Shown here piece by piece: positions 18,996 to 49,183 of a stretch of DNA of 64,000 nt (position 1 is its first letter; each line of letters opens with the position of its first letter). The translations under genes and the position numbers were made by a program. The DNA comes from a virus, in the IMG/VR virus record IMGVR_UViG_3300017605_001304, positions 64,001-128,000 of that record; one strand, given 5' to 3'. The notes under the pieces are model-generated. The model saw only the letters and a program-made list of their open reading frames with translations, made no database searches and was not told the origin of the DNA.

Positions 18996-19676
18996 TCACT
19001 CAAGTTCGACCCGGCGGAATTGCCAGCTCGCCACGCGCGACGGAACGATGACGCCACGAGGCGCAGACAGCCTCGACAGGTCGAGCTGGTCCGCCCACCA
19101 GACGCCGTCGAGTGAGGTGGCGTCCTCCACGTACACGGTCGTCAAGCAGTCAAATACGATGGTCGGATGAGCGGCTCCAAGCACGCGCTGCTGGAGTTTC
19201 TTCGTGGCGAGGACAGCACGCCGGGGGTCTTCAATCTTGGTGACCCGGCTAAACTTCTCGTCGGCATGTGCATCTGCGCGGGCCTCGTCTTCTGAGGCAT
19301 AGTCCGCACACAGCTCATCGTCCCATTCATCGTCATACCAACAGATTCGCCAGACCGAGCCGCGGACGATGTAGCCATGTTCAAGCCCCCACCCGACAAT
19401 CTCTTCACGCAGCCCGGGCACGATGTTGTGAAAATTGAGAAAGCGATTCCCCGCCCGCGTACACTCCCACACGGGGACAGCGCCCAAGGTCGCGATGTCG
19501 ATCCATTCCCGTGGATGCTGTGAAACCGAGAGTCCCGCGCCCTCCAGGCTTCCAGCCCGCTTGTCTTTCGCGTCGAGCGTTCCCGCGTGCCAGAGCTTCC
19601 GGAATGACTTCGTCGGGAGGTTGCGCTGCACTTCCAGGAATAGGCCACTAGCGATCGTGCGAGCTGACGGCCGCAT
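18996..19676 (-). CDS. Divergent ADP-ribosyltransferase-like protein with N-terminal tag
   Basis: LWHAGT...EGAGLSVS...DGVWW; N-terminus MRPSARTIASGLFLE. Confidence 0.5.
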   Translation of the reverse strand: MRPSARTIASGLFLEVQRNLPTKSFRKLWHAGTLDAKDKRAGSLEGAGLSVSQHPREWIDIATLGAVPVWECTRAGNRFLNFHNIVPGLREEIVGWGLEHGYIVRGSVWRICWYDDEWDDELCADYASEDEARADAHADEKFSRVTKIEDPRRAVLATKKLQQRVLGAAHPTIVFDCLTTVYVEDATSLDGVWWADQLDLSRLSAPRGVIVPSRVASWQFRRVELE

Positions 19677-19683
19677 GGACGCC

Positions 19684-20847
19684 TCACTCAAGGGTGGCGC
19701 GCATCTCCTGGAAGACCTCCACGAGCGCGGCGAGATTCGGATCGAGCTGCTCGGTCTTGTTGGCCGTGAGCGCGACGAGGGCCGGGCTCATGCGCAACAC
19801 CCACTCGCGGATCGCGTCCTCGGCCTTCACGTTCGGGCAGTGACACTTGGACGGGTCACTGCACTTGCCGCACTTGCGCTTCTTCGTGCGGTGGTTCGAA
19901 GCCGGGACCTGCCCGAGGGGAGGAGTGACGCCGGCCCCGACGTTGAGCGTGCCGGTCAGCTCGTTCAGGTAGTTGGTCGGCGACTGCCCGATGCCTTGCA
20001 TCAGGGCAGAGACGATGTCTTTCGAATTCATTGGCACAGACTCCCCGAAGATCTGCCGGCGGTACTGCGCCGCATTGTTTATCACCCAGTGTACAACGTG
20101 CTCGAATGAGCCCCGGTAGAGGCAGTCCCGGCCACCGGGAATCTTGGAGAGGACGCACCACACATCCCAGCCGTCGGATTGAAGCACCGCGATCGAGCTC
20201 GGAGGGATCTTGTTACCGAGGAAGATGTACTGGTTCTCGTTATCCCCGTAGTGATAAATCGGCACCGAGGCCGCCTGGAACAGTACGGCGTGCTTACCGT
20301 AGCTATCGTAAGCGCGCTCGGCCGCGCGTGCATCGAGCGCATTCACGGCGAAGTTGTAACCGCCATACCGCTTGGCCTCGTCCGATAGCCAGCTCGTGAG
20401 TCCTAGTCGCTGGTAGTCGTGGTACCCGCGGGTGAAGCCGTCCGCGCCGATTTCTTGCGGGGAGTCCGTGAAGTGGGCCAGCCACGTCTGACGGTGCGTG
20501 ATCGAGCCGCGGAGATCTGCGTGCGCGTAGGTGGGAAGATCTGCGTGATTCTCGACCGCGCTGTCTAGAAAGGCGTCCCACTCTTCTCGATGGTCGATGA
20601 ACCAGTCGTTGAGGCGTGCGACGACGGCCCAGTCTGCGTCAGAGTCCGGAACGTCGGAGGCCCACGTAGCCTTGATCTGCTTCGGCTTGATCCCAGCCGC
20701 GAGAGCGATCTCCTTGCTCTTTGGCCAGTGAGTGAACTCGTACCAATACTGAGCCACGTCCGGGGGCCGCAGGTCCATGTACGAGTGGAGCGCGCTCAGC
20801 TCGCTGCCGTAGACCTCGTCTTTCCGCTTGAGGTCCTTCGAGTTCAT
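19684..20847 (-). CDS. Multi-module protein with ART-like domain and C-terminal Cys knuckle
   Basis: WLAHFT...IGADGF...GYNFA...YG...GDNENQYIF; CGKC...CHC; ATGA overlap with the upstream gene. Confidence 0.55.
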   Translation of the reverse strand: MNSKDLKRKDEVYGSELSALHSYMDLRPPDVAQYWYEFTHWPKSKEIALAAGIKPKQIKATWASDVPDSDADWAVVARLNDWFIDHREEWDAFLDSAVENHADLPTYAHADLRGSITHRQTWLAHFTDSPQEIGADGFTRGYHDYQRLGLTSWLSDEAKRYGGYNFAVNALDARAAERAYDSYGKHAVLFQAASVPIYHYGDNENQYIFLGNKIPPSSIAVLQSDGWDVWCVLSKIPGGRDCLYRGSFEHVVHWVINNAAQYRRQIFGESVPMNSKDIVSALMQGIGQSPTNYLNELTGTLNVGAGVTPPLGQVPASNHRTKKRKCGKCSDPSKCHCPNVKAEDAIREWVLRMSPALVALTANKTEQLDPNLAALVEVFQEMRATLE

Positions 20848-22229
20848 GAGGCATGCTCTCCCGGATCCCCGTAGGGCAGGACCGACGCGAACCCGAACCC
20901 GAGCGGGCCGATCAAGAACATGGATCCGTCTTCCATGGCTTGCCACTTCATGCGGGGGATGATCTTGGCGAACTCTGGATCTTTGCGGGCCAAGCGCTCT
21001 AGACGGCGGAGTGCTTCCGCCTGAGCCTCTTCTCGCGTTCCACGCACCGCGACCTCGGCGAAGCCGGCCGGCTGCGGCACCTTCCCAAGCGGGGACGGAA
21101 GAAGACCATTCGGGAACTTCACACGCCAATACTCCCGGCCCGGCAGCTCGGTCGGCATGTTGGGCTTGAAGATCGGCTCTCCGACGGTCTTGTCGTCGAC
21201 CCAGCCGTCGGGGGTCCAACCGTCTTTGAAGAGCCGCGTCGCCATGGAGCGCGTGGATTCCTTCTTGTGCTTCTTCACGTCGTCTCCTCGCACGCGCGGT
21301 GTGTCGAAGGGGAAGCCCGGCGCGTCGACGTCCCTTGGGGTGAGCTGCGTGACCTTGGCGATCTTCTCCGTGTTGAAGACGACCACCCAGTCCTCGTTGC
21401 TCTGCCTCACGTACGCCACGTCGACGCCGTGGTCGACCAGGAACTTCGCGAGCGCCGGACCGGCCTGTCCAGACGCCTGATCCGAGTTCACGAAGACGTT
21501 GACGAGGTACTCGGCAGGGAACGGGTTCCCGGAGCGGGCCGCCAGCCGGCGCAGCGAGTCTGCGAGCTCCTGGCGCTGCCGAAGACGTGGGACGTCGCGC
21601 AGCCACGCGAGCGTCTCTTCGAGATCGAGGCGAGCGTCCTGCAGCCAGCGCAGGTCCGGAGCCAGGACGACCCGCTGCACGGCACCGCCGCCCTTCGCGT
21701 AGCCCTTGGCGGTCGTCCAGCTCGTGGTGAGGTAGATGCCGGGTCCGTGCTCCGCGGCGCCGCGTCGTGCACCACGGATCTCGGGCGGGCCGAACCACCG
21801 ATGCGAGCCGTGATACAGAACGAGCGGGTCCGTCATGGACGACTCTCGCTGACGCTGGATAGGTATTACCTCGTAATAGCGAGGAGAAGAAATGTCACTC
21901 TGCTCGCGGACATACGAGATAGCGATCTCGTCGACACGTGGGAACGTAAGGAGCACATAGTCTAGTACGCGCGTACGAAGTCGCGGGGCAGACATGAAGC
22001 GATTCGAACAAGCCTGCCGAATCCAGCCGCGCTTGAACATGCTCAGCCAAAGCTGGTCTTCCGCCGCCTCAGTGTTGTTCGTGAACTCCACCTGAGATGG
22101 AATCTGCACGCCGGTGGCGCGCAGTACGCCTTCGTGTGCATGGACCCAGTCATTGTGCGAAGTGTCCGGGTCGGTAATTGGGAACACGCAGCCATCCGGG
22201 GCGATCCAGGCGCGTCCAGCGTAGGCCAC
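20844..22229 (-). CDS. Three-module protein: WxxPDG domain + H-Y-type ART (ART-PolyVal-like) + C-terminal domain
   Basis: AWIAPDG...HNDW...GWIRQ; LYHGS...GPGIYLT...AKGYA...VVVFN; internal KESTRSMATRLF; GTG start with AAGGAG SD. Confidence 0.7.
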   Translation of the reverse strand: MAYAGRAWIAPDGCVFPITDPDTSHNDWVHAHEGVLRATGVQIPSQVEFTNNTEAAEDQLWLSMFKRGWIRQACSNRFMSAPRLRTRVLDYVLLTFPRVDEIAISYVREQSDISSPRYYEVIPIQRQRESSMTDPLVLYHGSHRWFGPPEIRGARRGAAEHGPGIYLTTSWTTAKGYAKGGGAVQRVVLAPDLRWLQDARLDLEETLAWLRDVPRLRQRQELADSLRRLAARSGNPFPAEYLVNVFVNSDQASGQAGPALAKFLVDHGVDVAYVRQSNEDWVVVFNTEKIAKVTQLTPRDVDAPGFPFDTPRVRGDDVKKHKKESTRSMATRLFKDGWTPDGWVDDKTVGEPIFKPNMPTELPGREYWRVKFPNGLLPSPLGKVPQPAGFAEVAVRGTREEAQAEALRRLERLARKDPEFAKIIPRMKWQAMEDGSMFLIGPLGFGFASVLPYGDPGEHAS

Positions 22230-22239
22230 AGGCAGCTCC

Positions 22240-22776
22240 TTAACCGAGCGTGCAGTCGATCGGCTGGAAGTCGGCGTAGATCTCGCGCGCCTTGTCCAGC
22301 GACCACCCATAATTACTCAGGTAGTTCACGAACGCGCCGAGGTCCAGGAACTTGAAGCCCGTCACGGAGTGGCAGAGGTTCTGGTAGAGGACGTTCAGTC
22401 GCACGACCTGCAGGTAGGCGCGCGCCACGACGCGGCCGAACTCGTTGGGCCGCAGCGGGCTCACGATGATGCGCGGGCCGTAGACCTTGGTCCAGTCGAT
22501 CTCTTCGGGCGGCAGGAGCGCCTGCGGGCCCCAGAGGGCGAGGGCCAAGCACTGGCTCGCGCGGTTGAACTTCTCGACGGCGTCCTTGTCGGGCTTGCCC
22601 TGCGCCTTCGGGCGGGTGTCCGGGAGGTCGACGCCGACGAGCTGGATGCGGGCCGCGCGGTACGTCCACAGGCCCTGGTCGATCATCCCGAAGAACGTCT
22701 TGCCGTCGACGACGAACTGCCGGCTCTTCGGGAAGAGCTGGACCTGACAGGCATAGTTGAACAGGATCCGATTCAA
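22240..22776 (-). CDS. Thermonuclease (SNase)-like protein with degenerate active site
   Basis: VVDGKT...ID.G...RIQLVGVDLPD...NEFGRVVA versus SNase DGDT/RL..VDTPE/DKYGR. Confidence 0.65.
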   Translation of the reverse strand: MNRILFNYACQVQLFPKSRQFVVDGKTFFGMIDQGLWTYRAARIQLVGVDLPDTRPKAQGKPDKDAVEKFNRASQCLALALWGPQALLPPEEIDWTKVYGPRIIVSPLRPNEFGRVVARAYLQVVRLNVLYQNLCHSVTGFKFLDLGAFVNYLSNYGWSLDKAREIYADFQPIDCTLG

Positions 22777-22801
22777 GAAGACCTCCCGTGACGTCGACGC
22801 C

Positions 22802-23311: not shown

Positions 23312-23319
23312 GGTATCGT
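23292..23319 (+). promoter_or_regulatory. Sigma70-like promoter
   Basis: TTGACG-N16-TATCGT with the same spacing and AGG-TAT junction as 2577 and 52082; spacer palindrome CCTTGATCAAGG. Confidence 0.55.
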
Positions 23320-23343
23320 CTCCACACCTTGGAGGAGGTGAAC

Positions 23344-23766
23344 ATGGCCACGCTGGACGAGCTGCAGAAGGGGTCCGAAGAGTGCTCGGCACGGATGCGA
23401 GCGGTGCTACAGGACGAGCTCAAGCGCACGGGCTTTCCACTGCGCCTATGCACCTACTACGTGGTCGGCATGACCGGCGCGTGGATCTTCCGGCTGCTCT
23501 TCAAGTTCGACCTGTTTGAGAACTTCAAGAGCTTGGCGCTCATCCTGCTGTGTCCGCCTCTGCTGACCGCGACGCAGGCTTTCCTGTTGAGCTTCATGCT
23601 CAAGCGGGCATACCAGCGGGCGCAGGATGCGCTCGGCATCGCGGACAAGGCGGAGAAGGCGCTGTTCGAGGCGACGCGAGGACTGCTCGCTCAGCGTGAG
23701 CAGCTCAAGTTCCTGGTCGAGAGGCTGCGCGATCGCGACGAAGGCGAGGAGTGGAAGGACGCTTAA
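23344..23766 (+). CDS. Membrane protein (2 hydrophobic segments plus coiled coil)
   Basis: GGAGGAGG SD; own promoter. Confidence 0.65.
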   Translation: MATLDELQKGSEECSARMRAVLQDELKRTGFPLRLCTYYVVGMTGAWIFRLLFKFDLFENFKSLALILLCPPLLTATQAFLLSFMLKRAYQRAQDALGIADKAEKALFEATRGLLAQREQLKFLVERLRDRDEGEEWKDA

Positions 23767-24257
23767 CGGCCGTGGCGGTACCGGTCGCAGGCGCACACGA
23801 TGTGGAACGGGAAGTTGGACGATCCCCAGTATCCGTCCTTGCTGCGCGTCTGCGTCTTGATCTCATAGAGGTCCGAATCGAAGCGCACGATCGAGCCGAC
23901 CAGGAACGTCGTGCTCGGCTGCAGGATCTTCTGGTCGAGCAGCAGCACGGTCGAGAACGTCACGAGCAGCGTCCGCTCCTCATCCATGCCGTACTTCTGC
24001 AGGCGGTACTTGCTCGGGCTGTGGTCGATGTGGGCGTGGACCATGATCGGGTGGTCCCAATCCGGGTCGGACGCCTCGTTGTAGAGCGAGTCGACGTTCG
24101 TGTTGCCCCGGTTGAGCAGGATCAACGCGATCTGCGGGTGGTGGCGGATGAACGCCTCGCGCTGGAAGTTCGCCTGGATCTTGTAGTCCGACGTCTCCAG
24201 CAGCTTGAGCAGGAGCTCATTCGCGTCCTTGCCGTCGATCGGCAGCAGGTCGGACAT
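23763..24257 (-). CDS. Neck / head-closure protein (gp14-like)
   Basis: NVDSLYNE, KYGMDE...VTFS, VGSIVRF...YEI; position. Confidence 0.7.
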   Translation of the reverse strand: MSDLLPIDGKDANELLLKLLETSDYKIQANFQREAFIRHHPQIALILLNRGNTNVDSLYNEASDPDWDHPIMVHAHIDHSPSKYRLQKYGMDEERTLLVTFSTVLLLDQKILQPSTTFLVGSIVRFDSDLYEIKTQTRSKDGYWGSSNFPFHIVCACDRYRHGR

Positions 24258-24966
24258 GGAGGTCCTCCAAGAACAGACGAGCGGCGAGGAAGCGGGTGGC
24301 CTCGTTCACGTGCAATTCGTACGGCCGCTCGGGACGCCCCTCATCGCTGTACGGGTCGACGTAGAACGACGACTTGCCGGGGTAGTTCGTGATGAAGTAG
24401 TCCTTCGCGCGGGACAGATCCTTGCGGCGAAGCTCGTACATGTTCCAGTCCGCCTTGCGGATCCAGCCGTGCATGCACATGTGGCGCATGATGACGTCGC
24501 CCGGGGTCAGTGGCGGCGTCTGATAGGCAGCTAAGAGTTCAGGGTGAACTCGGGCCCACGAGTCGTGAGACTGCCGGTCAGAGTCGAGCGGGTAGAACGT
24601 GTCGTCGGGAGCAATCCAACCTGCCCGAACATTGCGCGACTCGTGCAGGCGCACGGTCACCGGTTCCACTCGATGTGGAACGCGGCCGTGAAGGTCGAGA
24701 TTTGCTGCCTCGACTCCTGGATACTTCATGCGGATGTAATCGAGCAAGAGAGGCTCATACTTCACGTTCAACTCGTAGTCCTTCTTGCCAGCCTGCCGGA
24801 TCCAGCCCTTCGCGTACAACTGCGTAATGACCGCATCCGTGAAGTCAGGATCGTACGGGTCGTCCATGCCGAGCAGCTCGGCCGCGAACTGATCGTGCAT
24901 GTCGAAACGCGGCTCCAGAGGATGGAAGTTCATGTCCGGGTCGAGCCAGCCAATGTGGTCGGACAT
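24217..24966 (-). CDS. Protein with two tandem WxxPD domains and C-terminal tag
   Basis: GWLDPD...HDQF...GWIRQ; HES linker; GWIAPD...HDSW...GWIRK; EATRFLAARLFLE. Confidence 0.7.
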   Translation of the reverse strand: MSDHIGWLDPDMNFHPLEPRFDMHDQFAAELLGMDDPYDPDFTDAVITQLYAKGWIRQAGKKDYELNVKYEPLLLDYIRMKYPGVEAANLDLHGRVPHRVEPVTVRLHESRNVRAGWIAPDDTFYPLDSDRQSHDSWARVHPELLAAYQTPPLTPGDVIMRHMCMHGWIRKADWNMYELRRKDLSRAKDYFITNYPGKSSFYVDPYSDEGRPERPYELHVNEATRFLAARLFLEDLHVRPAADRRQGRE

Positions 24967-25787
24967 CACTGGCCCTCCAGGAACAGACGCTTCGCGATAG
25001 CCTTGGTGGACTCTAGCTGCACGACCACTGACTTGATGCGGCCGCGCCAATCTCTGAGATCAATCTCGATCGCGCGTACTTGAGGATACTTACGCCGGAC
25101 ATAGTCCACGACGGACTGTTCAAACAAAGCGTAGCACTCGTACTGGTCGCGACTCACTTGACGGATCCAGCCGTCGTCAAACATCGCTTGAATCTTCCTG
25201 TCGACCCAGTCATCGTCGTCCGAGTCGTGCGCCTCACTGTCGGCAACCCACCCGGCGTGTCCTTGCGGAGCGGCGTGAAACTGTCCGTTCGGGTCGATCC
25301 ACCCTTGCACCAGCGATGGCGCGGCTTCAAGCCAGCTCGACGGGAGCTTGAGCTGCTGGACGGCGCCAGATCGAATCGACGACGTCAACACGATCCACTC
25401 CTGCTCTTCGAGCGAGTCCTCGCTGGAGAGGTAGCGGCTGATCGGCAGCCCGATCGCTGTGCCTTTACGAAGGCGATACAGCTTGCCGGACTTCCAGTGC
25501 TTTTGCGCGAACGTCACCGCCGTAGTGACGTTGCTGCTCCAGGACTGGAACACGCGAGTCGACTCAGACGCGGGATCTACCTCTGCACCACGGTAGAGCG
25601 CAGGAACTGGTTGGCCGTTCTCTTTCAGGTCCTGCAGCAGTGCCCGGGCCTCGGCCCGCAGCTTCCGGCCAGACGCACTCGAAGGTTCTGGGGCCCCGGC
25701 GAGCTCGTCCTTGGCGTGCAGCTCGACGGTACCCATGTCGCTGCTGACCCACCGCCAGACGGCCCGTACCGCTTGAGGGTCGATCAT
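24966..25787 (-). CDS. R-S-E-type ADP-ribosyltransferase + WxxPxG domain + C-terminal tag
   Basis: LYRG...FQSWSS...EEQEWIV (R/SxS/ExE); GWIDPNG...HAGW...GWIRQ; ESTKAIAKRLFLE. Confidence 0.75.
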   Translation of the reverse strand: MIDPQAVRAVWRWVSSDMGTVELHAKDELAGAPEPSSASGRKLRAEARALLQDLKENGQPVPALYRGAEVDPASESTRVFQSWSSNVTTAVTFAQKHWKSGKLYRLRKGTAIGLPISRYLSSEDSLEEQEWIVLTSSIRSGAVQQLKLPSSWLEAAPSLVQGWIDPNGQFHAAPQGHAGWVADSEAHDSDDDDWVDRKIQAMFDDGWIRQVSRDQYECYALFEQSVVDYVRRKYPQVRAIEIDLRDWRGRIKSVVVQLESTKAIAKRLFLEGQ

Positions 25788-26146
25788 CCCAACCCCTCCA
25801 AGAACAGACGCTTGGCGATGGCCCGTGTAGACTCGTCCATGTTGATGACGAGTGTTTTCGGAGGGCCAAGAAAGTCAACTACATCGATATTAATTCGATG
25901 CACATTGGGGTGTACTCGACGTACGTAATCAATGACCCACTGCTCATACGCCGCGGTACACTCATAATCGTACAGTCCCGCTTGGCGCACCCACCCAGCC
26001 TTTAGCATCCGAACCGTCTCAGCGTTAACCCAAACCAGAATCTGATCGTTGTCCGGGGCTCCTGGCCTGTTGTCTATCACCCACTCGTCGTGGCCATTCA
26101 GTACGCGGTGGAACTCGCCGTCAGGATCAATCCAGCCCTGTGCCAC
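25784..26146 (-). CDS. Single WxxPDG-domain protein with C-terminal tag
   Basis: GWIDPDG...HDEW...GWVRQ; ESTRAIAKRLFLE. Confidence 0.7.
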   Translation of the reverse strand: MAQGWIDPDGEFHRVLNGHDEWVIDNRPGAPDNDQILVWVNAETVRMLKAGWVRQAGLYDYECTAAYEQWVIDYVRRVHPNVHRINIDVVDFLGPPKTLVINMDESTRAIAKRLFLEGLG

Positions 26147-26149
26147 GGC

Positions 26150-27178
26150 TTACCCCCACACAGGCGGAACGGCCGGCGCGAGCGAGCGCAGGTCATCTTC
26201 CAGCCGCTGCCGGTCTTGCCGGCTCTCGTCTAGAAGCTGCGCTGCGTCGAGCGTCAGCGTTCCACCGGGGCTCGGGACCGTCCCGCTCCACTTGCCGCGG
26301 GTCCGGCCGAGGATCTCCTTCGCGACGGCAAGTGCGTATTGTCGGAACCACGCGTGGTGCGAGACCGGGATCTGGTCGATCGCGACGTCGGCGTAGTAGC
26401 GGTACGAGACGTCGTAGAGGCTCGGGTCCTGAGAACCCGAGGGCCCGCCGAGCGAGATGTAGAGCGTCCCGTTCTCAACTCGCCAAGTCCACTCGGGCTC
26501 GACCGACGCCTGCCTACGCACTGTTTCCCAGTGCGACTGCGAGAGCACGAACTCGTCGAACTGGATCTGCGGCCAGATCGGGAACTCGCGGCCGAAGAAC
26601 GGGAACGACGTCAGGTTCAACTGCTGCTTGCGAACGAACTGCACGTCCGCAACGCCGCGTGAGCCGACGCCCGGCAGCGGGTAGGCGAAGATGCCGGCGC
26701 TCAGCACCACGGTGTCCGACAGCTCGCGGGCGCACCAGCGGTTGTACACCGTGAGCGCTTCGTTCATGCACGTCGCGAGCTGCCCGCTCGTGAGCTCGAC
26801 GGCCACGGACGGGAAGCCCAGCATGTTGAAGACGTACTGCCGGATCGAGTCGGAGTTGACGCCGCTCGCGATCGGGTATTCAGCCGTCAGCACGGTCGGG
26901 AACGGATCAACCTGGATGCCGAGCTGGTTCGCGTACCACTTCGCCGTGATCCGGCCCTGCACATAATTGCTGGCGTCGATGTACGTGTAGTAGAACGTCC
27001 CCTGCGCGTCCGAGCCTTGCACGATCGAGACCGAGGAGTCGGTCCCGAGTGCCCGGGTCTCAGTCACCGTCACGGCGCCCGCCTGGAAGATCTGGACCGA
27101 GAGGTCCTGATCGACCACGTCGCCGAGCCCGGTGTCGTCATTGACGAAGCGGATGTCCAACAGAACTGGAAGCGCCAT
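26150..27178 (-). CDS. Neck / head-tail adaptor (gp13-like) with N-terminal beta extension
   Basis: IRQY...LGFPSVAVELT; WFRQYALAVAKEILGRTRGKW...PGG...LD. Confidence 0.9.
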   Translation of the reverse strand: MALPVLLDIRFVNDDTGLGDVVDQDLSVQIFQAGAVTVTETRALGTDSSVSIVQGSDAQGTFYYTYIDASNYVQGRITAKWYANQLGIQVDPFPTVLTAEYPIASGVNSDSIRQYVFNMLGFPSVAVELTSGQLATCMNEALTVYNRWCARELSDTVVLSAGIFAYPLPGVGSRGVADVQFVRKQQLNLTSFPFFGREFPIWPQIQFDEFVLSQSHWETVRRQASVEPEWTWRVENGTLYISLGGPSGSQDPSLYDVSYRYYADVAIDQIPVSHHAWFRQYALAVAKEILGRTRGKWSGTVPSPGGTLTLDAAQLLDESRQDRQRLEDDLRSLAPAVPPVWG

Positions 27179-35677: not shown

Positions 35678-37114
35678 TTACGGGTTGAGGACCTGACCCG
35701 TCGAATACATCTTGTTGTTGATCGCCTTCACACCGTACTGCGTCATCGCGCCCTTGCGCCCGATGAAGTCATCGAGCACAACGGTCGGGGTCGTGAGGAG
35801 CGGGATGTACGGCGCGTACACGTAGCCCGCGTCCATGAACGAGTTGCCCTTGAAGCCCATCACCCACTTGTCGACCGGGAAGTTCGGGTCCTTGAAGCAA
35901 TCGAAGCGACCGAGGAACTTGCCCATCTCGACGATGCCGGTGTTGCTGTGCGTCGCATACGCATTCGAGTCCGGCTTGAACTGCGGATGGGACTCGATGA
36001 CGTTCGCCACCGAGGTACCCATGACCACGAAGTTCGCCTGCCCGCGCTTCGTCGCGCTGTAGATGAGCTGGCTGCCAGTGATGAACGCATCCGCGAGCGT
36101 CAGCTTGTGCTCGGCGTAGCTGATGTTCGCCGGGGTGGCCTTGTCCCAAAGGACGTTGCCCGCGCCCGCGAAGTTGTAGAGGTCGTTGATGATCTGGCGG
36201 TCGATCTCGTACTTGATCACCTCGGCCAGAACACCGACCAGCTCCGCTTCCGCATCCAGGCCGTGGAGCGCCTGGAGGTTCTGCGAAGCCTCAAGCGACC
36301 AGTTCGCCTTGAGCTTGCGGACCTCGGCCGTGACGCTGGAGCTCGTGAGCTGCAGGTCGATGCCGGGGATTGCCGTGTTGGCCTCAGCGTCGTAGTCGTA
36401 GGTGATGAGGAGGCTCGTGGCGGTACCGCCGGTGCTCCAACCAACCGAGGCAATCGCGCCGGTCGTGTAGTTGACCGTGCCCGCGGTGATGCCCGTGCCG
36501 ATCAGGTTGCCGTTGCCATCATCCGTGAAGCTCGTGGCCGTGGTCGCACCGACGATCGTGCCGGACAGCGTGCCCGGCTTGATCGGAAGCTGACCAGAGC
36601 CCCACGTCGCGGACTGAGGCGTGGTACCGGCGAAGGTCACCGTCAACTGGGGAACGGTCGCCGAGCTGTAATACTCGGAGTTCACCGGCCCGGTCCGCGA
36701 GTCGAAGAAGGTCGAGCCCGCGGTCTGGTTGCCCTTGGTCAGGCTCAGGATGAAGTCGAGATAGAAGACCAGCGAGATCGGCCCGGACATCGGCTGGATC
36801 GACACGATCTTGTTCGCGATGAGCTCGGGATAGATCGCCCGAACCAGCGGGAACGCGAACTTGTCGAACGAACCAATGTTGAGCAGCTTGGTCGTCTCAG
36901 TCAGCGGTCGCTCGCCCGTCAGCGTGACGTTCGGCCGCGTCTTGAGCATGTGCTGTCGCTGGTTCTCCAGAAGGAGCGCCGTCCACGGGCGGGAAAGCCC
37001 GTCGAGGCCCTTCATGTAGCGCGACCACTGAGCAGACTCGGCCAGACGCTCACCCGTGGTGATCATCTCGCCGTGCTGCTCTTCATTGAACTCCTTCAGA
37101 TCGGGAGTAAGCAT
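35678..37114 (-). CDS. Major capsid protein (T4 gp23-like)
   Basis: TALLLENQ, PLVRAIYPELIA, IQPMSGP, RKLKANWSLEASQNL...HGLDAEAEL, EIDR, DAGYVYAPYIPL. Confidence 0.97.
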   Translation of the reverse strand: MLTPDLKEFNEEQHGEMITTGERLAESAQWSRYMKGLDGLSRPWTALLLENQRQHMLKTRPNVTLTGERPLTETTKLLNIGSFDKFAFPLVRAIYPELIANKIVSIQPMSGPISLVFYLDFILSLTKGNQTAGSTFFDSRTGPVNSEYYSSATVPQLTVTFAGTTPQSATWGSGQLPIKPGTLSGTIVGATTATSFTDDGNGNLIGTGITAGTVNYTTGAIASVGWSTGGTATSLLITYDYDAEANTAIPGIDLQLTSSSVTAEVRKLKANWSLEASQNLQALHGLDAEAELVGVLAEVIKYEIDRQIINDLYNFAGAGNVLWDKATPANISYAEHKLTLADAFITGSQLIYSATKRGQANFVVMGTSVANVIESHPQFKPDSNAYATHSNTGIVEMGKFLGRFDCFKDPNFPVDKWVMGFKGNSFMDAGYVYAPYIPLLTTPTVVLDDFIGRKGAMTQYGVKAINNKMYSTGQVLNP

Positions 37115-37132: not shown

Positions 37133-38767
37133 TCATGCACGCCGCAAAAGGCCCTTGATCATGTCGCGCTTCGTCTCCGGCTTCGGAGACGCGTCTTCGG
37201 TCAGCGGCTTCCGGTCCTGGGGACCATTGGGCAGCGCCGACTCGAATGCGGGCTGATGCGGAATGCTCGGGTCATTGTTGTCACGCGGCTGCGGGGCCAG
37301 CTTGTGCTGACCACACTGTGGGCAGGAGATTTCCTGCGCCGTGGTTTCGGCCTCGGTCACATAGTGGCAGCCTGCACAGGCGACCTTGTGAGTCGAAACC
37401 TTCGGCTTGGCGTCGGTGGCAGCGCTCTCCCGCTTGGATCGGGCAGGGTTGAACGCCTTGACCTGGATCTCGATCATTTCATCGAGTTCAGCGATCGTCT
37501 TCTGCTTACGGAGCAGTGGCTCCACCCGTCGCAGGGAGGGGTTGTCCGCAAGAGCTTCACGAATGCGGCGCAGCAGCTTCGCTTCGTCGTTGCGCTTCAC
37601 GAAGGCTTCGAGCAGAGACAGCGCCGAAGCGCGCTCCGTCCCGACCTTGTGCAGCTCCTTCAACTTCTCCGCGAGCTTCTGCTCGACCTTCCGCGTCCCG
37701 TCGATGAGCGCAGCCGCGAGCTTCTTGGCCGCCTCGAACTTGCCCTTCGGGACCGAATCGGTCGACTCCACCAGTCGCCGCTCAAGCTCGGCGATCCGGC
37801 GGTCGGCAATAGACAGCCGTGCAAACGTCTCGGCCAGGAGCTCCGAACCGGCCGAAGCCGTAGTCGCGCCCGAGAACGAGCCGTTGACGGTGACAGTGTT
37901 GGCAGAACTGGTCGTGACCGGCGGAGCAATGGCCGCCTGAACGCGCGCCGCGAACGGCGCCGCCGTCTCGTTGTACGAGCGATCCCGTGCCGCAGACGCG
38001 GCCGTACGGGACGCCTGGATGACGGCCAGGGCTTCGTCACCGTCCTTCTTCAGGGACGGCTGCTGCCCGAGCAGGGTCTGGATCTTCGACTCAGACTCAA
38101 TGAGTTCGAGAACGAACTTGTCGAGCTGCTTCGTGTCCGTGGTGGCCAGGGCTTCCTTGATCTCGTAGGCCCGGACCTGAAGGCGCCGGATCTCCGCCTG
38201 CTTTGCGTCCATGCTGGACTCCATCTTGTAAGGACCGCTCAGACTCTCCGCGAGCCGCGGGTACGCGCCTTCCACGCTCGGGGTGGAGACGAAGTCAAAG
38301 GTGTCGAGCTTGAAGCTCGCTTCCTCGACGTACTCGACTCCGTCGCGCATGACCGACGTGCCGCGCCCTCGCGAAGAGATCCCCACGGGAACTCCGGCGC
38401 GGAACAACTTCTGAAGGTGGATGCCAGGGACCGTGTCGAGGACGAGTGCTTCGCCCTGGACTTCGTCTCCCTCCAGCCACAGCTTCTTGACAATGTGTGA
38501 AACTTCGAGCAGGTGGGTCTGACCGCTGTCGGGATGCTCCACGACGCCGGTCATGCCGTTGTTACCCATCCGCTTCTGCTGCTCGGGGTTGTTGAGCTGG
38601 TTCTCCCACAAACCCCGGGTGTAGACCCGGCCGTTGCCGTTCTTCACCCCGCCCATCTGGAAGCGGCCACGCACCGTCATCCAGTTGTTGTTATCGACCT
38701 TCTCTTGAAGGACTGTGAACTTGGCGGGAGCAAGATGTTCAATGAGAGGCTTGAGGTCGCCGCTCAT
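37133..38767 (-). CDS. Prohead protease (gp21-like) fused to a coiled-coil scaffold
   Basis: KNGNGRVY, EHP, VSH, GISSRGRG, FDFVSTPS; then ~350 aa helical region with CAGC/CPQC. Confidence 0.92.
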   Translation of the reverse strand: MSGDLKPLIEHLAPAKFTVLQEKVDNNNWMTVRGRFQMGGVKNGNGRVYTRGLWENQLNNPEQQKRMGNNGMTGVVEHPDSGQTHLLEVSHIVKKLWLEGDEVQGEALVLDTVPGIHLQKLFRAGVPVGISSRGRGTSVMRDGVEYVEEASFKLDTFDFVSTPSVEGAYPRLAESLSGPYKMESSMDAKQAEIRRLQVRAYEIKEALATTDTKQLDKFVLELIESESKIQTLLGQQPSLKKDGDEALAVIQASRTAASAARDRSYNETAAPFAARVQAAIAPPVTTSSANTVTVNGSFSGATTASAGSELLAETFARLSIADRRIAELERRLVESTDSVPKGKFEAAKKLAAALIDGTRKVEQKLAEKLKELHKVGTERASALSLLEAFVKRNDEAKLLRRIREALADNPSLRRVEPLLRKQKTIAELDEMIEIQVKAFNPARSKRESAATDAKPKVSTHKVACAGCHYVTEAETTAQEISCPQCGQHKLAPQPRDNNDPSIPHQPAFESALPNGPQDRKPLTEDASPKPETKRDMIKGLLRRA

Positions 38768-43887: not shown

Positions 43888-43889
43888 GG

Positions 43890-45238: not shown

Positions 45239-45244
45239 GAGACC

Positions 45245-45763
45245 TCACTTGATCTCGGCGTGCACCGAGTAGCGGTTGAAGGCCGGGGATTCCCAGCTCA
45301 TCGTAACCGAAAGGTTGGTCGGGATGGGGTTGCCTGTGCAGTCGGGGTTGTTCTTGCCGACCGCGAAGGTCGCGGACTTGGCGTCCGCTTCGAAGGCGTC
45401 AGCCTGCAGCGCCTCCATCGGGCAGAGGCCACGCGCCGCCAGGATCGCCACGGCCTTGCCGTACGCGTAGCGCGGGTTCTGGACGAAGGCTTGGCCGTCG
45501 AGCCCCGCGTTCAGGAAGGCGAGCTGCAGGCCCTGCTTGATCGCGTCGGGGAGCGACTCCTGCGGAGGCGTCGGCTCGTTGGCACGCTTGTCCTTCTCCG
45601 GCGTCGAGAGCTTGTCGCCCTTGCCGTAGTAGTTCTGGTCGATCTTCTGGCTCAGGTTCGGCTTGTCCTTCGCCTTCTTGGCGTCGTTGGACACGGCGTC
45701 CGTCAGGACGAGACGTTCGACGAAGTTCAGGACGATGTTCGCCTTGGGCCCGATCTCACTCAT
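45245..45763 (-). CDS. Hypothetical protein
   Basis: GGAGG SD. Confidence 0.6.
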   Translation of the reverse strand: MSEIGPKANIVLNFVERLVLTDAVSNDAKKAKDKPNLSQKIDQNYYGKGDKLSTPEKDKRANEPTPPQESLPDAIKQGLQLAFLNAGLDGQAFVQNPRYAYGKAVAILAARGLCPMEALQADAFEADAKSATFAVGKNNPDCTGNPIPTNLSVTMSWESPAFNRYSVHAEIK

Positions 45764-47414
45764 GTCGACCTCCCTGCAGACCCCGGAAGAGTCGGGCTGC
45801 GATGTTGCGGACGGACTCCTTGACCGGTTCCTTGTCCTTGTACAGCAGCGGCTGCTTGCCGGACTTCACGGGCGCGTCCTTGGCCGCTTGCCGATCCACG
45901 GTATCGATCTCGACGTCCGGCCCGTACTCCTGGTGGATCCAGTCCTCGATCTCTCGATCGTTGTAGTCGTAGCCATCGGGCGTCTTGACCGTCTCGAAGT
46001 CTTCCCCGAAGACCTCGCGGCCCAGGAAGCGACCATCCTTGGTGTAGATGAAGCGGATCTCGGGCTGCGAGTCCTGCTTAAAGAACTCGATGTGGCCTCG
46101 TCTATCTTTATAGGATCCGCGGTCCTTCAGCAGGTGCCAGTAGATGTTCTCGGCAGCGAAGTCCTTGATCACCTTATCGTTGTCTTCCCACTCGTTAGGA
46201 ATACTCTCCATCGTCGGGTGCTGACCGTCCAAGAAGAACCAGTACGTCGAGGTGTTGTCCGCGCCCCAAAGATGTTCATGCTCACAATCTTGACAATAGT
46301 TCTGCCCGCAGTATTCGCAGTTATAGATGTCCTCGGGATCAAAGCTGTCCCCGCAGCCAGAGCACTCCTCCGTCTCATGATCCACCCAGAATCTCCCGCC
46401 GTGCGCATCCTGAATCCGCCGCTGCTGCTCCGACGTGAAGTCGTCCCACTCCAGCCCGCTGTCGTCCGACAAGCCGTTGACGCGGTTGGTGCAGAAGAGG
46501 TCCGCCAACTTCGCCAACGAGTCTTCGTCGTTGGGTTCCTTGTTCGACGGGCCACGGATCTGCACCGCGCTCTTGTCGTCGACGTCGACCGTGATCAGCG
46601 GCCTCCAGATCTTCGTCTTCGGGTCCAAGGCCCGGTACGAGTAGAGCGTGCCCTCCCCTGCTCCACAGTGGTGCATCAGCTCACCTTCGAGATCCGACTC
46701 GCGACAGTCTAGGTGCACCCAAGCCGAGCCGTCGTCGTACTCAAGCACGATCTCGCCGAGATCACCCGCCTTGTTCGCGGACCGGATGTCGCCGCGTAGC
46801 TGAGCAGCGTACTTCTCACGGAGCTCGGCGACCCGATGTATGAGGCTTGCGGGGTTGGCCGCCTTTACGTCGAAGTTGATGTTGTCGAGGAGCGTGTCGA
46901 TGTCGATCTTCGTCTTTTCCGCGATCTCGCCCAGTCCGCGGAGCCCGTCCTGCAGGTTGTCCTTCACCTGATAGAAATCAAGTGGCATCCAGTCCGCGTT
47001 CCACCCAAGGGCCACACAGAGCTTTGCGTAGTAATACTGCGTCGCGCTCACGATCGCCCGCCCTGCGGGATCTTCGCGGTTTTCCTTTGTGGAAGGCAGC
47101 GCGTGCCCGAGAATCTCTCGATACCGGTTCCACGCACCGAGGAGCATCCAACGAAACGCCCAGATCGAGCGGTCGTAGCGCTTGAATTGCAGGGCCAGCT
47201 CTTCGCCGAGTTTGTAGAGCTGATCAGGATCCGAGAAGATGTTCGCGTTATTCGCCTGTCGCTTACGGAACTCACTCTCAGGCGGCAGTGCATCGATCAT
47301 CGCCTTGATCTTCTGCACATGCTTCACGTACGTTGCGAACATGGCGCGCATGTCCGCCTGCGGGTTACGACCCTCGGCCAGCAGGCGCACGAAGATGTCG
47401 TAGACCCGAGCCAT
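45756..47414 (-). CDS. PcfJ-like domain protein with Zn finger and terminal tags (paralogue A)
   Basis: SDLEGELMHHCG...YSYR...TVDV...QIRGPSN; CSGC/CEYC/CQDC; C-terminal ESVRNIAARLF. Confidence 0.7.
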   Translation of the reverse strand: MARVYDIFVRLLAEGRNPQADMRAMFATYVKHVQKIKAMIDALPPESEFRKRQANNANIFSDPDQLYKLGEELALQFKRYDRSIWAFRWMLLGAWNRYREILGHALPSTKENREDPAGRAIVSATQYYYAKLCVALGWNADWMPLDFYQVKDNLQDGLRGLGEIAEKTKIDIDTLLDNINFDVKAANPASLIHRVAELREKYAAQLRGDIRSANKAGDLGEIVLEYDDGSAWVHLDCRESDLEGELMHHCGAGEGTLYSYRALDPKTKIWRPLITVDVDDKSAVQIRGPSNKEPNDEDSLAKLADLFCTNRVNGLSDDSGLEWDDFTSEQQRRIQDAHGGRFWVDHETEECSGCGDSFDPEDIYNCEYCGQNYCQDCEHEHLWGADNTSTYWFFLDGQHPTMESIPNEWEDNDKVIKDFAAENIYWHLLKDRGSYKDRRGHIEFFKQDSQPEIRFIYTKDGRFLGREVFGEDFETVKTPDGYDYNDREIEDWIHQEYGPDVEIDTVDRQAAKDAPVKSGKQPLLYKDKEPVKESVRNIAARLFRGLQGGRHE

Positions 47415-49183
47415 CAACGGTCTCCCTGGAAGAGCCTCTTCGCGAGCGCTCGACTGGACTCCTTTTGCTGGTACAGGAGCGGCTGCTTCCCGGCCTTCAC
47501 CGGAGCGTCGCGCTTCGCCTGCCGCGACTCGTCCTCGATGTCGACGTCCGGGCCGTACTGCTGGTAGACCCAGTAGTCGATGTCTGCCTTCGGGACGTTC
47601 GCGACGTAGCGCCGGCCTGGAACTCCCTCCGGCTCGTGCGACCGATACCAGTCATCTTGACCAGAGAACTGCTCGATGCCGAGCAGTCGTCCATCATGCT
47701 TCGAGTAGATGAAGATGGTCTGCGGCGGGTCCTTGCCGTAGTACATCTCGACGTCTCTACGGGCCACGCCCTTCCAGTCAAAGTCGTACTTATTGTCTGG
47801 ATTAGCGGCCATGTATTGAAACGCGTCGGTATCCGGCGTCTCGCCCTCATTATCGTTGTCGCCCCACTTCGTGGGAAGCAGTCCGTCCCACACCAACTGG
47901 CCGTCGACGTAGGCCCAGACTTGGATCGTATCGCCCCAGAGCTCGTCCTCCTCATGACCACCGATACAATCGTTACAGTAGAGTTCGTCGCAGTATTCGC
48001 ACTTGTTCAGCTCGTCCTCGTCGAACCGATCTCCGCAGCCCTCGCACTTCTCGCGGTTGTCCTCTTCCGGCTCGTTGTCGCCGTCATCAGCATCTTGCTC
48101 GCGGTGGCCGGGGTAAACGTGGCGAGAGTCGGTAAAGGTAAAGCCGGGGTTCTCGCTCTGGATCTTGGCGACCTGCTCCGGGGTGAAGTTGCTCTTCTGG
48201 ACGTCGCCCCCGTACGTCGTCCCGCGCATCCACTTGGCGGTCGCGAGCAGGTCGGTGAGCTTCTCCCAGGCTTTCGGGTCGTCGTCGAGCACGGCGTTGG
48301 CCGACCCACGGAACTGCGCGACGCGGTGGTCGTGCGTCAGCCCGACGTTGTAGACGGGCTGCCAGCCCTTGCCGCTCGGAGCCTTCTCGCGGTAGGAGAG
48401 CTGGTCCCCGCCCGACGAGCCGCCGCAGTGGTGCATCAACTCGCCTTCGAGATCCGACTGCGTGCACTTCAAGTTCAGCCAGACTGCTCCGTCCGGGTAC
48501 TTGACGACGACCTCGCCGACAGCACCTTGCTTGTTCGCGGTGGTGATGTCGCCCATGAGCTCGGCGCGGAAGTCCGCTTCGATCTTCTTATAGACAGAAG
48601 GCAGATGACTACTTGGCATCGGAACCACGAAGCCGCCCTTTGCCAGGATCGTGTCCACCGGCTGCGTCGTCTTCTTGTTCACCTTTTCAGCAATCTCAAG
48701 AATCGCCGTCAGTATTGCAGTAACTCTGTCCGTAGGCAGTGGCCCGTTACCTAGAGTCGGATCCACCCTGCGAACGATCGCAGCCACGGCTTCCATCAGG
48801 GAATTGTAAAACCCCTCCCATTCCACAGAATGGCTATTCGCTGCCCGCTGGACACATAGGTTATGAATAAGACGATTCACTACGATTGCAAGCATCCATC
48901 TCCACGCCTGAATCGCGTACGTATACGAACCGAGACGCTTACAGAGCTGAAACGCAACCTCGTCCTCCGGCTGGTCTACGTAGCGCCGCAAGGCGCCTAG
49001 CTCGTTTTGTAGCGCCTGCGTAAGAGGTTGATAATTAGGATCGCTATCGGCCTTCGCGAGCACCTCCGGCGTGAAGATCCTCTCGATCCGCCGGATGGCG
49101 GCGTGGCCGATCTCCCGCATGTCGGTAAAGGGATTCCGCCCCTCCAGCAGAGCTTGCAGGAAGAAGTCCTTGGGAGAGGCCAT
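47414..49183 (-). CDS. PcfJ-like domain protein with Zn finger and terminal tags (paralogue B)
   Basis: SDLEGELMHHCG...LSYR...QFRGSAN; CEGC/CEYC/CNDC; C-terminal ESSRALAKRLF. Confidence 0.7.
   Translation of the reverse strand: MASPKDFFLQALLEGRNPFTDMREIGHAAIRRIERIFTPEVLAKADSDPNYQPLTQALQNELGALRRYVDQPEDEVAFQLCKRLGSYTYAIQAWRWMLAIVVNRLIHNLCVQRAANSHSVEWEGFYNSLMEAVAAIVRRVDPTLGNGPLPTDRVTAILTAILEIAEKVNKKTTQPVDTILAKGGFVVPMPSSHLPSVYKKIEADFRAELMGDITTANKQGAVGEVVVKYPDGAVWLNLKCTQSDLEGELMHHCGGSSGGDQLSYREKAPSGKGWQPVYNVGLTHDHRVAQFRGSANAVLDDDPKAWEKLTDLLATAKWMRGTTYGGDVQKSNFTPEQVAKIQSENPGFTFTDSRHVYPGHREQDADDGDNEPEEDNREKCEGCGDRFDEDELNKCEYCDELYCNDCIGGHEEDELWGDTIQVWAYVDGQLVWDGLLPTKWGDNDNEGETPDTDAFQYMAANPDNKYDFDWKGVARRDVEMYYGKDPPQTIFIYSKHDGRLLGIEQFSGQDDWYRSHEPEGVPGRRYVANVPKADIDYWVYQQYGPDVDIEDESRQAKRDAPVKAGKQPLLYQQKESSRALAKRLFQGDR

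What the first reader, a model, noticed from the sequence alone, without database searches (positions are those of the whole stretch)
18996..49183. Portable, Glu-bounded tag (ESxRxIAxRLF[LE]) shared by unrelated cargo proteins: candidate capsid-loading system
Seen: one ~11-13-aa amphipathic peptide recurs in seven genes. It lies at or near the C-terminus in ESTRAIAKRLFLE (25796-25834), ESTKAIAKRLFLE (24975-25013), EATRFLAARLFLE (24265-24303), ESSRALAKRLF (47429-47461) and ESVRNIAARLF (45786-45818). It is internal in ESTRSMATRLF (21228-21260) and N-terminal in MRPSARTIASGLFLE (19632-19676). Looser N-terminal variants end in LLE/LAE/FFE (ORFs starting 49183, 47414, 45238, 54997). The codons differ between copies, so the conservation is at protein level. 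In both orientations a Glu sits on the cargo-facing side. Known: T4 gp21 cleaves after Glu, and T4 internal proteins are loaded through a short N-terminal capsid-targeting sequence; a gp21 homologue is encoded at 37133-38767. Inference: a position-independent, cleavable packaging helix that loads effectors into the head for injection. It may mimic the scaffold's C-terminal helix (KRDMIKGLLRRA).
Basis: partly seen in the sequence, partly recalled or inferred. Interest (0 to 1): 0.88.

Follow-up and report, generated by a model that had tools for sequence, protein, structure and literature searches.

The report
Shared helical tag on phage accessory enzymes
An 11-residue peptide is shared by seven accessory proteins in the head and neck operons of an uncultured phage with a T4-type head; it is probably a docking tag for loading them into the virion, but four carriers are paralogues and the loading role is untested.

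Summary
The motif E-[ST]-x-R-x-[ILM]-A-x-R-L-F is real. It has six strict copies in the whole 149-kb genome, all in true coding frames. Codon third positions vary, so selection acts on the peptide. A model trained only on foreign copies from other metagenomes ranks exactly the seven claimed carriers as its top seven hits.

The carriers are not all unrelated. A, B, C and D share a new ~100-aa 'GWIxPDG' domain, and G and H are full-length paralogues. That leaves three families: GWIxPDG, PcfJ-like G/H, and ART-like F. Between families only the tag aligns.

Related phages carry the tag C-terminally, N-terminally, or internally before a GNAT domain. More distant relatives carry a different recurrent helix (R-A-D-x-L-I...L-x-E).

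The carriers are lineage-specific insertions in late head and neck operons of a phage with a Gp23 capsid protein and an S77 protease.

Capsid loading, in the style of the T4 targeting sequence or Alt, is the best reading (about 0.4), but it is circumstantial. A strong rival is that the helix partners the GWIxPDG domain. The terminal 'LE' of A, B and C is also the next gene's ribosome-binding site. Similarity to the scaffold tail and the loose N-terminal variants are not significant.

The parts
25796..25834 (-). Tag copy in A: the core 11 residues plus L-E, 3 residues before the stop
   Evidence: (i-E 3e-8). AF2 models it as helix 107-118 at pLDDT 75-80.
24975..25013 (-). Tag copy in B, 2 residues before the stop
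   Evidence: (i-E 3e-7).
24265..24303 (-). Tag copy in C, 15 residues before the stop. The tail of C overlaps the start of the next gene at 24257.
   Evidence: (i-E 6e-6).
21228..21260 (-). Internal tag copy in D, after the ART-like region and 125-127 residues before the stop
   Evidence: i-E 5e-7.
47429..47461 (-). Tag copy in G, 4 residues before the stop, with no downstream Glu
   Evidence: i-E 1.6e-6. hhalign aligns only this stretch to the A-D family.
45786..45818 (-). Tag copy in H, 9 residues before the stop
   Evidence: i-E 1.8e-6.
19632..19676 (-). Diverged N-terminal tag of F, ending in L-F-L-E. It is marginal taken alone.
   Evidence: rank 7 of 44,878; rank 6 with the foreign-only model. 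Atlas family members align from residue 14-17 onward, so the tag is an N-terminal extension.
25784..26146 (-). Gene A: a single GWIxPDG domain plus the tag (120 aa), starting 3 nt after the gp13-like gene
   Evidence: AF2 mean pLDDT 93.4. No match to a known fold.
24966..25787 (-). Gene B: an N-terminal domain of unknown family, then a GWIxPDG domain, then the tag (273 aa)
24217..24966 (-). Gene C: two GWIxPDG domains plus the tag (249 aa). A truncated tag-like stretch sits between the two domains.
20844..22229 (-). Gene D: GWIxPDG domain, ART-like region, tag, then a C-terminal region (461 aa)
   Evidence: (ART-PolyVal E 4.7e-4, below the cut-off).
18996..19676 (-). Gene F: an ART-like lead with the N-terminal tag (226 aa)
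47414..49183 (-). Gene G: PcfJ-like lead plus a Cys-rich zinc ribbon. It has a conserved N-terminal hydrophobic peptide ending L-L-E-G and the C-terminal tag (589 aa).
45756..47414 (-). Gene H: a paralogue of G (552 aa) with the same conserved N-terminus (ending L-A-E-G) and the C-terminal tag
37133..38767 (-). S77 prohead protease fused to a long coiled-coil or scaffold-like tail. The tail ends in a basic helix preceded by P-L-T-E.
   Evidence: (Peptidase_S77, 53 bits against a cut-off of 27).
35678..37114 (-). Gp23-family major capsid protein, with conserved L-L-E-N and L-x-E-T-T sites in its N-terminal delta domain
   Evidence: (E 9e-66).
26150..27178 (-). gp13-like neck protein immediately upstream of gene A. 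It is the synteny anchor to relatives L001 and L015.
23763..24257 (-). Conserved 164-aa neck-operon gene. Tag-bearing genes are inserted on both sides of it in this phage and in L001.

Best explanation
The peptide E-[ST]-x-R-x-[ILM]-A-x-R-L-F is a short, selected, transferable alpha-helical docking tag.

Shown:
- It is conserved at the peptide level.
- It is shared by three non-homologous families of accessory proteins in this phage: the GWIxPDG family (A-D), the PcfJ-like pair G/H, and ART-like F.
- In relatives from other samples it sits at the C-terminus, at the N-terminus or between domains.
- All carriers sit inside late head and neck operons of a phage with a T4-type capsid protein and an S77 protease. 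All are absent from a syntenic, more distant relative.

Inferred:
- The tag most likely recruits these late-made enzymes into the assembling prohead, by binding the scaffold/core or the inner shell. They would then be carried in the virion and delivered with the DNA. This parallels the T4 capsid-targeting sequence, T4 Alt and encapsulin cargo peptides.
- Where the tag is N-terminal or internal, the Glu ending L-F-L-E would be an S77 cleavage site that frees the downstream domain.
- At C-termini the tag may be left on, or trimmed at the upstream Glu.
For: - The tag is real and cross-validated.
- Between the A-D and G/H families only the tag aligns.
- The GWIxPDG domain is absent from G, H and F.
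- Foreign copies exist: C-terminal in P0050, P0109 and P0037; N-terminal in P0045; internal before a GNAT domain in P0009 and P0027.
- In those foreign proteins and in F the L-F-L-E ending is kept where no downstream ribosome-binding site is needed.
- The head module is T4-type. The capsid protein has nearly invariant L-L-E-N and an invariant Glu in L-x-E-T-T. The protease has P-L-T-E before its last 20 residues.
- The carriers are packed in operons with the structural genes, with gaps or overlaps of 10 nt or less between most neighbouring genes (C overlaps the next gene by 41 nt) and no convincing terminators.
- L015 (capsid protein 53% identical) keeps the neck gene order but lacks A-F and G/H. 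L001 (gp13-like protein 64% identical) has tag genes at the same two spots.
- Enzyme-like cargo: ART-PolyVal hit in D, ART/AcrIF11 lead for F, GNAT fusions in relatives.
- G and H have strongly conserved N-termini ending L-L-E-G and L-A-E-G as well as the C-terminal tag. In T4, Alt is trimmed at both ends by gp21, and the internal proteins share only a targeting sequence (PMC9026906, PMC3012670).
- A hydrophobic doublet followed by Glu in residues 7-22 is enriched in the structural block (12/53 against 7/186, p = 7e-5, pattern and region chosen post hoc).
Against: - There is no proteomic, structural or binding evidence. The loading step is inference only.
- Four of the seven carriers have the GWIxPDG domain, and every GWIxPDG protein in the genome has the tag. 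The tag may therefore belong functionally to that domain rather than to the capsid.
- In distant relatives an analogous helix recurs internally before repeats of giant proteins, and on contigs with no recognised head genes. One targeting signal per protein should be enough.
- P3 before the upstream Glu is M, Q, V, K, Q, V, and P3 in L-F-L-E is Phe. Neither is the T4 L/I preference.
- G, H and D lack the downstream Glu.
- The L-E of A, B and C coincides with the next gene's ribosome-binding site.
- The resemblance to the protease/scaffold C-terminal helix ranks only 61st of 44,878.
Confidence: 0.4

Rival explanations
1. The helix is the partner element of the GWIxPDG module. It packs on, or is bound by, a GWIxPDG domain. 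This could happen within one protein, or between proteins, assembling A-D with G, H and F into an effector complex. It would have no direct contact with the capsid.
For: - In this genome the domain occurs only in tagged proteins.
- Nearly all foreign tags sit directly at the domain's end or just before it.
- Distant relatives have a different but analogous helix 15-25 residues before the domain, at N-termini and before internal repeats of giant proteins.
- In the AF2 model of A the tag is a helix at pLDDT 75-80, not a disordered tail.
Against: - Domain copies exist without a full helix: C domain 1, the D domain, and many relatives.
- The helix exists without the domain in G, H, F and a 103-aa protein of L017.
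- The helix has lower confidence than the domain core, which is at 93-98.
- This reading does not explain why all carriers sit in late structural operons.
Confidence: 0.3
2. The tag is a shared localisation motif for a host target. It would dock all these effectors on one host hub protein, or on the inner membrane, after delivery or during infection.
For: - The peptide is short, helical and basic-hydrophobic, and sits at the termini of several enzyme-like proteins.
- From memory, its K-R-L-F-x-G ending resembles the C-terminal membrane-targeting helix of E. coli MinD. This was not checked with a tool.
Against: - The hydrophobic moment is no higher than in shuffled versions, and mean hydrophobicity is negative.
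- Positions E1, S/T2, R4, A7, R9 are tightly conserved, unlike membrane helices, which conserve only amphipathicity.
- N-terminal and internal copies exist.
Confidence: 0.12
3. The tag has no dedicated function. It is a linker or leftover inherited by tandem duplication and gene fission from a polyprotein ancestor, and G/H and F acquired it by local recombination.
For: - A-D are paralogues and G/H are paralogues.
- A, B and C are contiguous genes with overlapping stops and starts placed just after the tag. This is what a multi-domain protein split at its linkers would look like.
- Giant multi-repeat relatives exist.
Against: - The tag is far better conserved than its carriers: 7-10 of 11 identical, against 27-48% in the domains and 32% in G/H.
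- It is kept across samples in proteins about 30% identical.
- Third codon positions have diverged, so the copies are not recent gene conversions.
Confidence: 0.13
4. The conservation reflects an RNA- or DNA-level signal (a ribosome-binding site or translational coupling element for the next gene) rather than a peptide.
For: - In A, B and C the codons for L-E-G/D spell GGAGG 6-8 nt before the next start codon.
- E and F also end in L-E plus a stop just upstream of the next start codon.
Against: - The 11-residue core lies upstream of the ribosome-binding site and varies at third positions.
- The D and F copies, and foreign internal and N-terminal copies, have no downstream start codon.
Confidence: 0.03

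Closest known systems
T4 capsid-targeting sequence (CTS) of internal proteins IPI-III, and the propeptides of Alt
   Same: - A short peptide is the only thing shared by otherwise unrelated, fast-evolving accessory proteins.
- The phage has a Gp23 capsid protein and a gp21-family (S77) Glu-specific protease.
- F, and P0045 in the relative L001, carry the tag N-terminally, ending in hydrophobic-x-Glu.
- T4 Alt is a packaged ART trimmed at both termini (PMC9026906, PMC3012670).
   Different: - Five of the seven copies here are C-terminal and one is internal.
- The sequence is unrelated to the T4 CTS, and is longer and more tightly conserved.
- P3 is Phe, or a non-hydrophobic residue, instead of L/I.
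- Targeting and cleavage are untested here.
Encapsulin cargo-loading peptides, and the C-terminal capsid-targeting tail of the HK97 maturation protease
   Same: These are short terminal peptides, mostly C-terminal, that dock non-homologous cargo to the inside of an HK97-fold shell. This comparison is from my own knowledge, not checked in the paper library.
   Different: - There is no sequence similarity.
- Here the shell is a T4-type capsid with a separate core.
P1 DarB N-terminal packaging signal
   Same: A terminal signal is sufficient to send a large anti-defence enzyme and a reporter into a myophage head (PMC9024508).
   Different: - The P1 signal is N-terminal only.
- No consensus is shared among the Dar proteins, whereas here one consensus recurs on several proteins.
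Phage polyvalent proteins and virion-packaged effectors (Iyer et al. 2017, PMC5512222)
   Same: - ART and GNAT modules are encoded among late structural genes and predicted to be packaged.
- Relatives are giant multi-domain proteins.
- D gives a weak ART-PolyVal hit.
   Different: - Here most modules are separate small genes, each with the tag.
- The GWIxPDG domain gave no Pfam, PHROG, PDB or BFVD match, and the tag was not seen described in the papers read.
- The Pfam hit is below the gathering score.

Membership tests
T4-type capsid-targeting sequence (CTS) | N-terminal peptide of about 10 residues | tested here: not met
   Five copies are C-terminal and one is internal. Only F (marginal) and foreign P0045 are N-terminal.
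T4-type capsid-targeting sequence (CTS) | Ends at a prohead-protease site (L/I-x-Glu, cleaved after the Glu) | tested here: inconclusive
   L-F-L-E is present in A, B, C, F, P0009, P0027 and P0045, but P3 is Phe. G, H and D lack the Glu. In A, B and C the codons double as the next gene's ribosome-binding site.
T4-type capsid-targeting sequence (CTS) | The phage encodes a gp21-family protease and a Gp23 shell | tested here: met
   Peptidase_S77, 53 bits (cut-off 27). Gp23, E 9e-66. PHROG head maturation protease and major head protein.
T4-type capsid-targeting sequence (CTS) | Sufficient to load a foreign protein into proheads, and removed on maturation | not testable with these tools
   This needs virion proteomics or a reporter-packaging assay.
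Encapsulin / HK97-type cargo-loading peptide | Short terminal peptide shared by non-homologous cargo | tested here: met
   The tag is shared by the A-D family, G/H and F. Only the tag aligns between families.
Encapsulin / HK97-type cargo-loading peptide | Binds the inner face of the HK97-fold shell protein | not tested
GWIxPDG domain family (uncharacterised) | Significant match to the profile built from the paralogous domains | tested here: met
   A, B, C (two copies) and D score E 1e-43 to 1e-54. G, H and F do not match. There are 180 relatives among 1.84 billion representatives.
ADP-ribosyltransferase (ART-PolyVal / AcrIF11-like) cargo | Profile match above the curated threshold, or a fold match | tested here: inconclusive
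   D: ART-PolyVal 21.4 bits against a cut-off of 31.2. F: Atlas feature leads at 0.91 only. PDB sequence searches of B, D and F were empty. The single-sequence fold of F failed, pLDDT 29.5.
PcfJ-like proteins (G/H) | Pfam PF14284 match | tested here: inconclusive
   E 0.12 on one of the two members. Atlas feature score 0.89, a lead only.
C-terminal amphipathic membrane-targeting helix (MinD/FtsA type) | High hydrophobic moment and positive hydrophobicity; conserved amphipathicity rather than sequence | tested here: not met
   The moment is 0.27-0.76, not above shuffles (only the foreign tag P0037 reached 0.04). Mean hydrophobicity is about -0.2. Specific residues are conserved.

The most novel reading that the evidence does not exclude
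The reading has five parts:
1. A position-independent virion-loading tag, working at the N-terminus, the C-terminus or between domains, marks a whole set of injected enzymes (ART-like, GNAT, PcfJ-like) in a clade of uncultured phages with T4-type heads.
2. The tag is tied to a new GWIxPDG adaptor domain.
3. Each phage lineage keeps its own co-evolving version: the E-S-x-R...R-L-F version here, and the R-A-D-x-L-I...L-x-E version elsewhere.
4. Giant multi-repeat relatives are polyproteins that the Glu-specific prohead protease cuts at these helices.
5. The small genes A, B and C are the same units already split at gene level.
Probability: 0.25. Interest if true: 0.8.

Novelty: new variant of a known kind. 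Interest (0 to 1): 0.6.

Why it matters
- If the tag is a loading signal, it would extend the T4 capsid-targeting principle to a signal that also works at the C-terminus and internally.
- It would give a sequence handle for predicting which accessory genes of uncultured phages are delivered into the host as proteins.
- It would offer a compact tag for packaging foreign proteins into phage heads.
- Independently of function, the work defines a new domain family (GWIxPDG). The family has 180 relatives, reaches into giant phage proteins, and gave no match to a solved or predicted viral fold in the Foldseek searches run here.
- It also shows two insertion hot spots for accessory genes in the neck operon.

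Tried and rejected
- **Complex prediction.** Two designs were sent: capsid protein + A, then capsid protein + A domain without tag + G/H C-terminus.
- **Relatives of G/H.** The search for homologous proteins with G and with the G/H alignment returned only the query itself.
- **Related loci.** The search for related loci with G, B and the gp13-like alignment found nothing in viral or metagenome contigs.
- **Back-translated tag patterns.** Scans of viral, metagenome and genome contigs gave 9, 36 and 28 hits. All were chance or wrong-frame matches, and none lay near a GWIxPDG domain.
- **N-terminal peptide model.** A model of the R-A-D-x-L-I N-terminal peptide from foreign relatives does not find the G/H N-termini. 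Homology between that peptide, the tag and the G/H N-termini is therefore unproven.
- **Scaffold mimicry.** The protease C-terminal helix ranks 61st of 44,878. This is suggestive only.
- **Fold of A.** No match in PDB or BFVD.
- **Cargo identity.** The single-sequence fold of F failed. PDB sequence searches of B, D and F were empty.
- **Membrane-helix idea.** Not supported by the hydrophobic moment.
- **Ribosome-binding-site-only explanation.** Rejected for the 11-residue core. Accepted for the terminal L-E of A, B and C, and for the L-E-stop ends of E and F.

Full report
**Setting.** The window is bases 64,001-128,000 of a single 149,155-bp contig with about 64% G+C. Most genes lie on the minus strand. 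The contig encodes:
- a Gp23-family major capsid protein (35678-37114; Pfam E 9e-66);
- directly upstream of it, an S77 prohead protease fused to a long scaffold-like tail (37133-38767; 53 bits against a cut-off of 27);
- a gp13-like neck protein (26150-27178);
- a tail sheath (16133-17797).

The best capsid relatives among deposited phages are only 35-39% identical. Metagenome proteins reach 72-74%. This is an uncultured phage with a T4-type head module.

**The observation.**
- The strict pattern E-[AST]-[ASTV]-[RK]-x-[ILM]-A-x-[RG]-L-F occurs six times in a six-frame scan of the whole genome. All six are on the minus strand, in the frames that GC3 marks as coding.
- A profile of the six scores them at i-E 3e-8 to 6e-6. 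Nothing else in my 267-protein set is significant. The best further hit is the N-terminus of F (score 3.5; rank 7 of 44,878 11-mers in a BLOSUM profile scan).
- Between copies, codon positions 1 and 2 are conserved while only 3-7 of 11 third positions agree. Selection therefore acts on the peptide.
- Circularity was checked by leave-family-out models. Tags of A-D alone recover G and H as the best non-training hits. G/H alone recover A, B, D and C. A model built only from six tags found in other metagenomes ranks A, B, H, D, C, F, G as its top seven.

**What the carriers are.** They are not seven unrelated proteins.
- A, B, C (twice) and D share a ~100-aa domain. I call it GWIxPDG after its first conserved stretch. 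A and B are 48% identical over 118 residues, E 1.5e-35.
- G and H are full-length paralogues at 32% identity.
- Between the two families only 13-19 residues around the tag align, by BLASTP and by hhalign.
- The domain profile finds no copy in G, H or F.
- Three families therefore carry the tag.
- A folds with mean pLDDT 93.4. The tag forms helix 107-118 at pLDDT 75-80. The fold has no match in PDB or BFVD.
- Enzyme identities are weak leads: ART-PolyVal in D, below threshold; PcfJ plus a zinc ribbon in G/H; ART/AcrIF11-like for F. The relatives of F align only from residue 14-17 onward, so its tag is an added N-terminal extension.

**The Glu boundaries.** The upstream Glu is universal.
- The downstream L-E occurs in A, B, C and F only.
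- In A, B and C its codons (CTG GAG G) are the GGAGG ribosome-binding site, 6-8 nt before the next start codon. E and F also end in L-E plus a stop for the same reason.
- The same L-F-L-E is nevertheless kept where no gene follows: in F and in foreign proteins. So it is not only a ribosome-binding-site effect.

**Relatives.** A profile search of 1.84 billion representatives with the domain found 180 relatives. Many are giant proteins with up to 10 repeats, the largest being 5,251 aa. The tag itself recurs outside this genome:
- C-terminally in three ~127-aa single-domain proteins (P0050, P0109, P0037);
- N-terminally in P0045;
- internally, between the domain and a GNAT acetyltransferase, in P0009 and P0027.

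L001 is a 4.9-kb JGI contig whose gp13-like protein is 64% identical to ours. It has the same layout: gp13-like gene, tag-bearing A-like gene, conserved 162-aa gene, then a gene with the tag at its N-terminus.

L015 has a capsid protein 53% identical to ours. It keeps the neck order from the gp13-like gene to the sheath but lacks A-F, and it has no G/H homologue. The carriers are thus lineage-specific insertions at two spots in the neck operon and one spot upstream of the head genes.

They are tightly packed with their neighbours and no convincing terminators lie among them.

**A wider pattern.**
- Many distant single-domain relatives begin with a different conserved helix (R-A-D-x-L-I-x-x-x-L-x-E), 15-25 residues before the domain.
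- Giant relatives carry the same helix, often preceded by E-S, before internal repeats.
- On contig L017 this helix sits at the N-terminus of four proteins, one of which lacks the domain. It also sits internally in three others, including one with an Arr-type ART.
- Each lineage thus seems to keep its own version of a helix that ends in L-x-E.
- Homology between that helix and our tag is plausible but unproven. A model of the foreign helix does not detect the G/H N-termini.

**Mechanism.**

For capsid loading:
- the T4-type head module;
- conserved L-L-E-N and L-x-E-T-T sites in the capsid delta domain, and P-L-T-E before the last 20 residues of the protease;
- late-operon placement of the carriers, and enzyme-like cargo;
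- portability of the tag;
- the doubly conserved termini of G and H;
- the T4 precedents. The internal proteins share only a targeting sequence, and Alt, a packaged ART, is trimmed at both ends (PMC3012670, PMC9026906). P1 DarB has an N-terminal signal (PMC9024508). Virion-packaged effectors are reviewed in PMC5512222.
- an enrichment of a hydrophobic doublet followed by Glu near N-termini in the structural block (12/53 against 7/186; the pattern and region were chosen post hoc).

Against capsid loading:
- nothing shows incorporation, cleavage or binding;
- the helix is strongly tied to one domain family, and in relatives it recurs internally;
- the residues before the upstream Glu do not fit L/I-x-E;
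- the match to the scaffold tail is not significant.

I put capsid loading at about 0.4 and a helix-GWIxPDG partnership at about 0.3. The remainder is split between a host-localisation motif, an inherited linker and an RNA-level signal. The membrane-helix idea is weakened by an unremarkable hydrophobic moment.

**Limits.**
- Pattern scans of three collections gave only chance hits.
- G/H have no detectable homologues.

**Earlier notes of this scan.** Other first-stage notes on this same genome flagged the same tag and the ART fusions.

Noticed in passing
window 21831-26146 (domains in A, B, C, D); relatives P0003-P0151: The GWIxPDG domain is a new family. It has 180 relatives among 1.84 billion representatives, many of them giant phage proteins with up to 10 repeats (largest 5,251 aa). 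The AF2 model is confident (pLDDT 93), yet no PDB or BFVD fold matches.
   Followed up: partly
L017:5886-13800 and L018:5180-15940: In two other metagenome contigs a different helix (R-A-D-x-L-I-x-x-x-L-x-E) recurs. It is found at the N-termini of several proteins and internally in large ones, including a protein with an Arr-type ADP-ribosyltransferase domain and a 103-aa protein without the GWIxPDG domain.
   Followed up: partly
window 18257-27178 compared with L015:17158-21096 and L001:927-4291: The neck operon has two insertion hot spots for accessory genes. One lies just after the gp13-like gene. The other lies between the orthologues of 22240-22776 and 18257-18988. L015 has neither insertion, and L001 has small ones.
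   Followed up: yes
window 36880-37114 (capsid N-terminus) and 37133-37200 (protease C-terminus): Across 72 capsid homologues, L-L-E-N is nearly invariant and the Glu of L-x-E-T-T is invariant. These are likely maturation sites. The protease has the same P-L-T-E just before a 20-residue basic C-terminal tail, which looks like a removable C-terminal propeptide.
   Followed up: partly
window 15500-61000: A hydrophobic doublet followed by Glu within residues 7-22 is enriched in proteins of the structural block (12 of 53 against 7 of 186 elsewhere, p = 7e-5). The pattern and the region were chosen after looking at the data.
   Followed up: partly
window 54536-54985 (-): A 149-aa protein starts with a T-A-D-E-I-L...L-L-E-G helix followed by G-W-D-P-E-F-G. 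This resembles the foreign helix plus the start of the domain, but the domain profile does not match it.
   Followed up: partly
L015:2851-3681: A 276-aa protein upstream of the head genes of the distant relative ends in E-S-A-A-E-M-Y-S-R-L-F-G-G-K. This is tag-like but not significant with the tag model.
   Followed up: no
window 25784-26146 (-): The public gene call for A is only 74 aa (P0013). Domain homology and the confident fold show that the gene starts at the GTG at 26146, giving 120 aa.
   Followed up: yes
window 38767-40332 (-): A 521-aa acidic, low-complexity protein sits where T4 has its portal gene. It has no Pfam or PHROG match, and only its first ~100 residues are shared with L015. 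The portal gene was not located in the window.
   Followed up: no
window 56329-60984 (-) and L015:367-2325: The 1,551-aa protein shares only its last ~70 residues with a 652-aa protein of L015.
   Followed up: no
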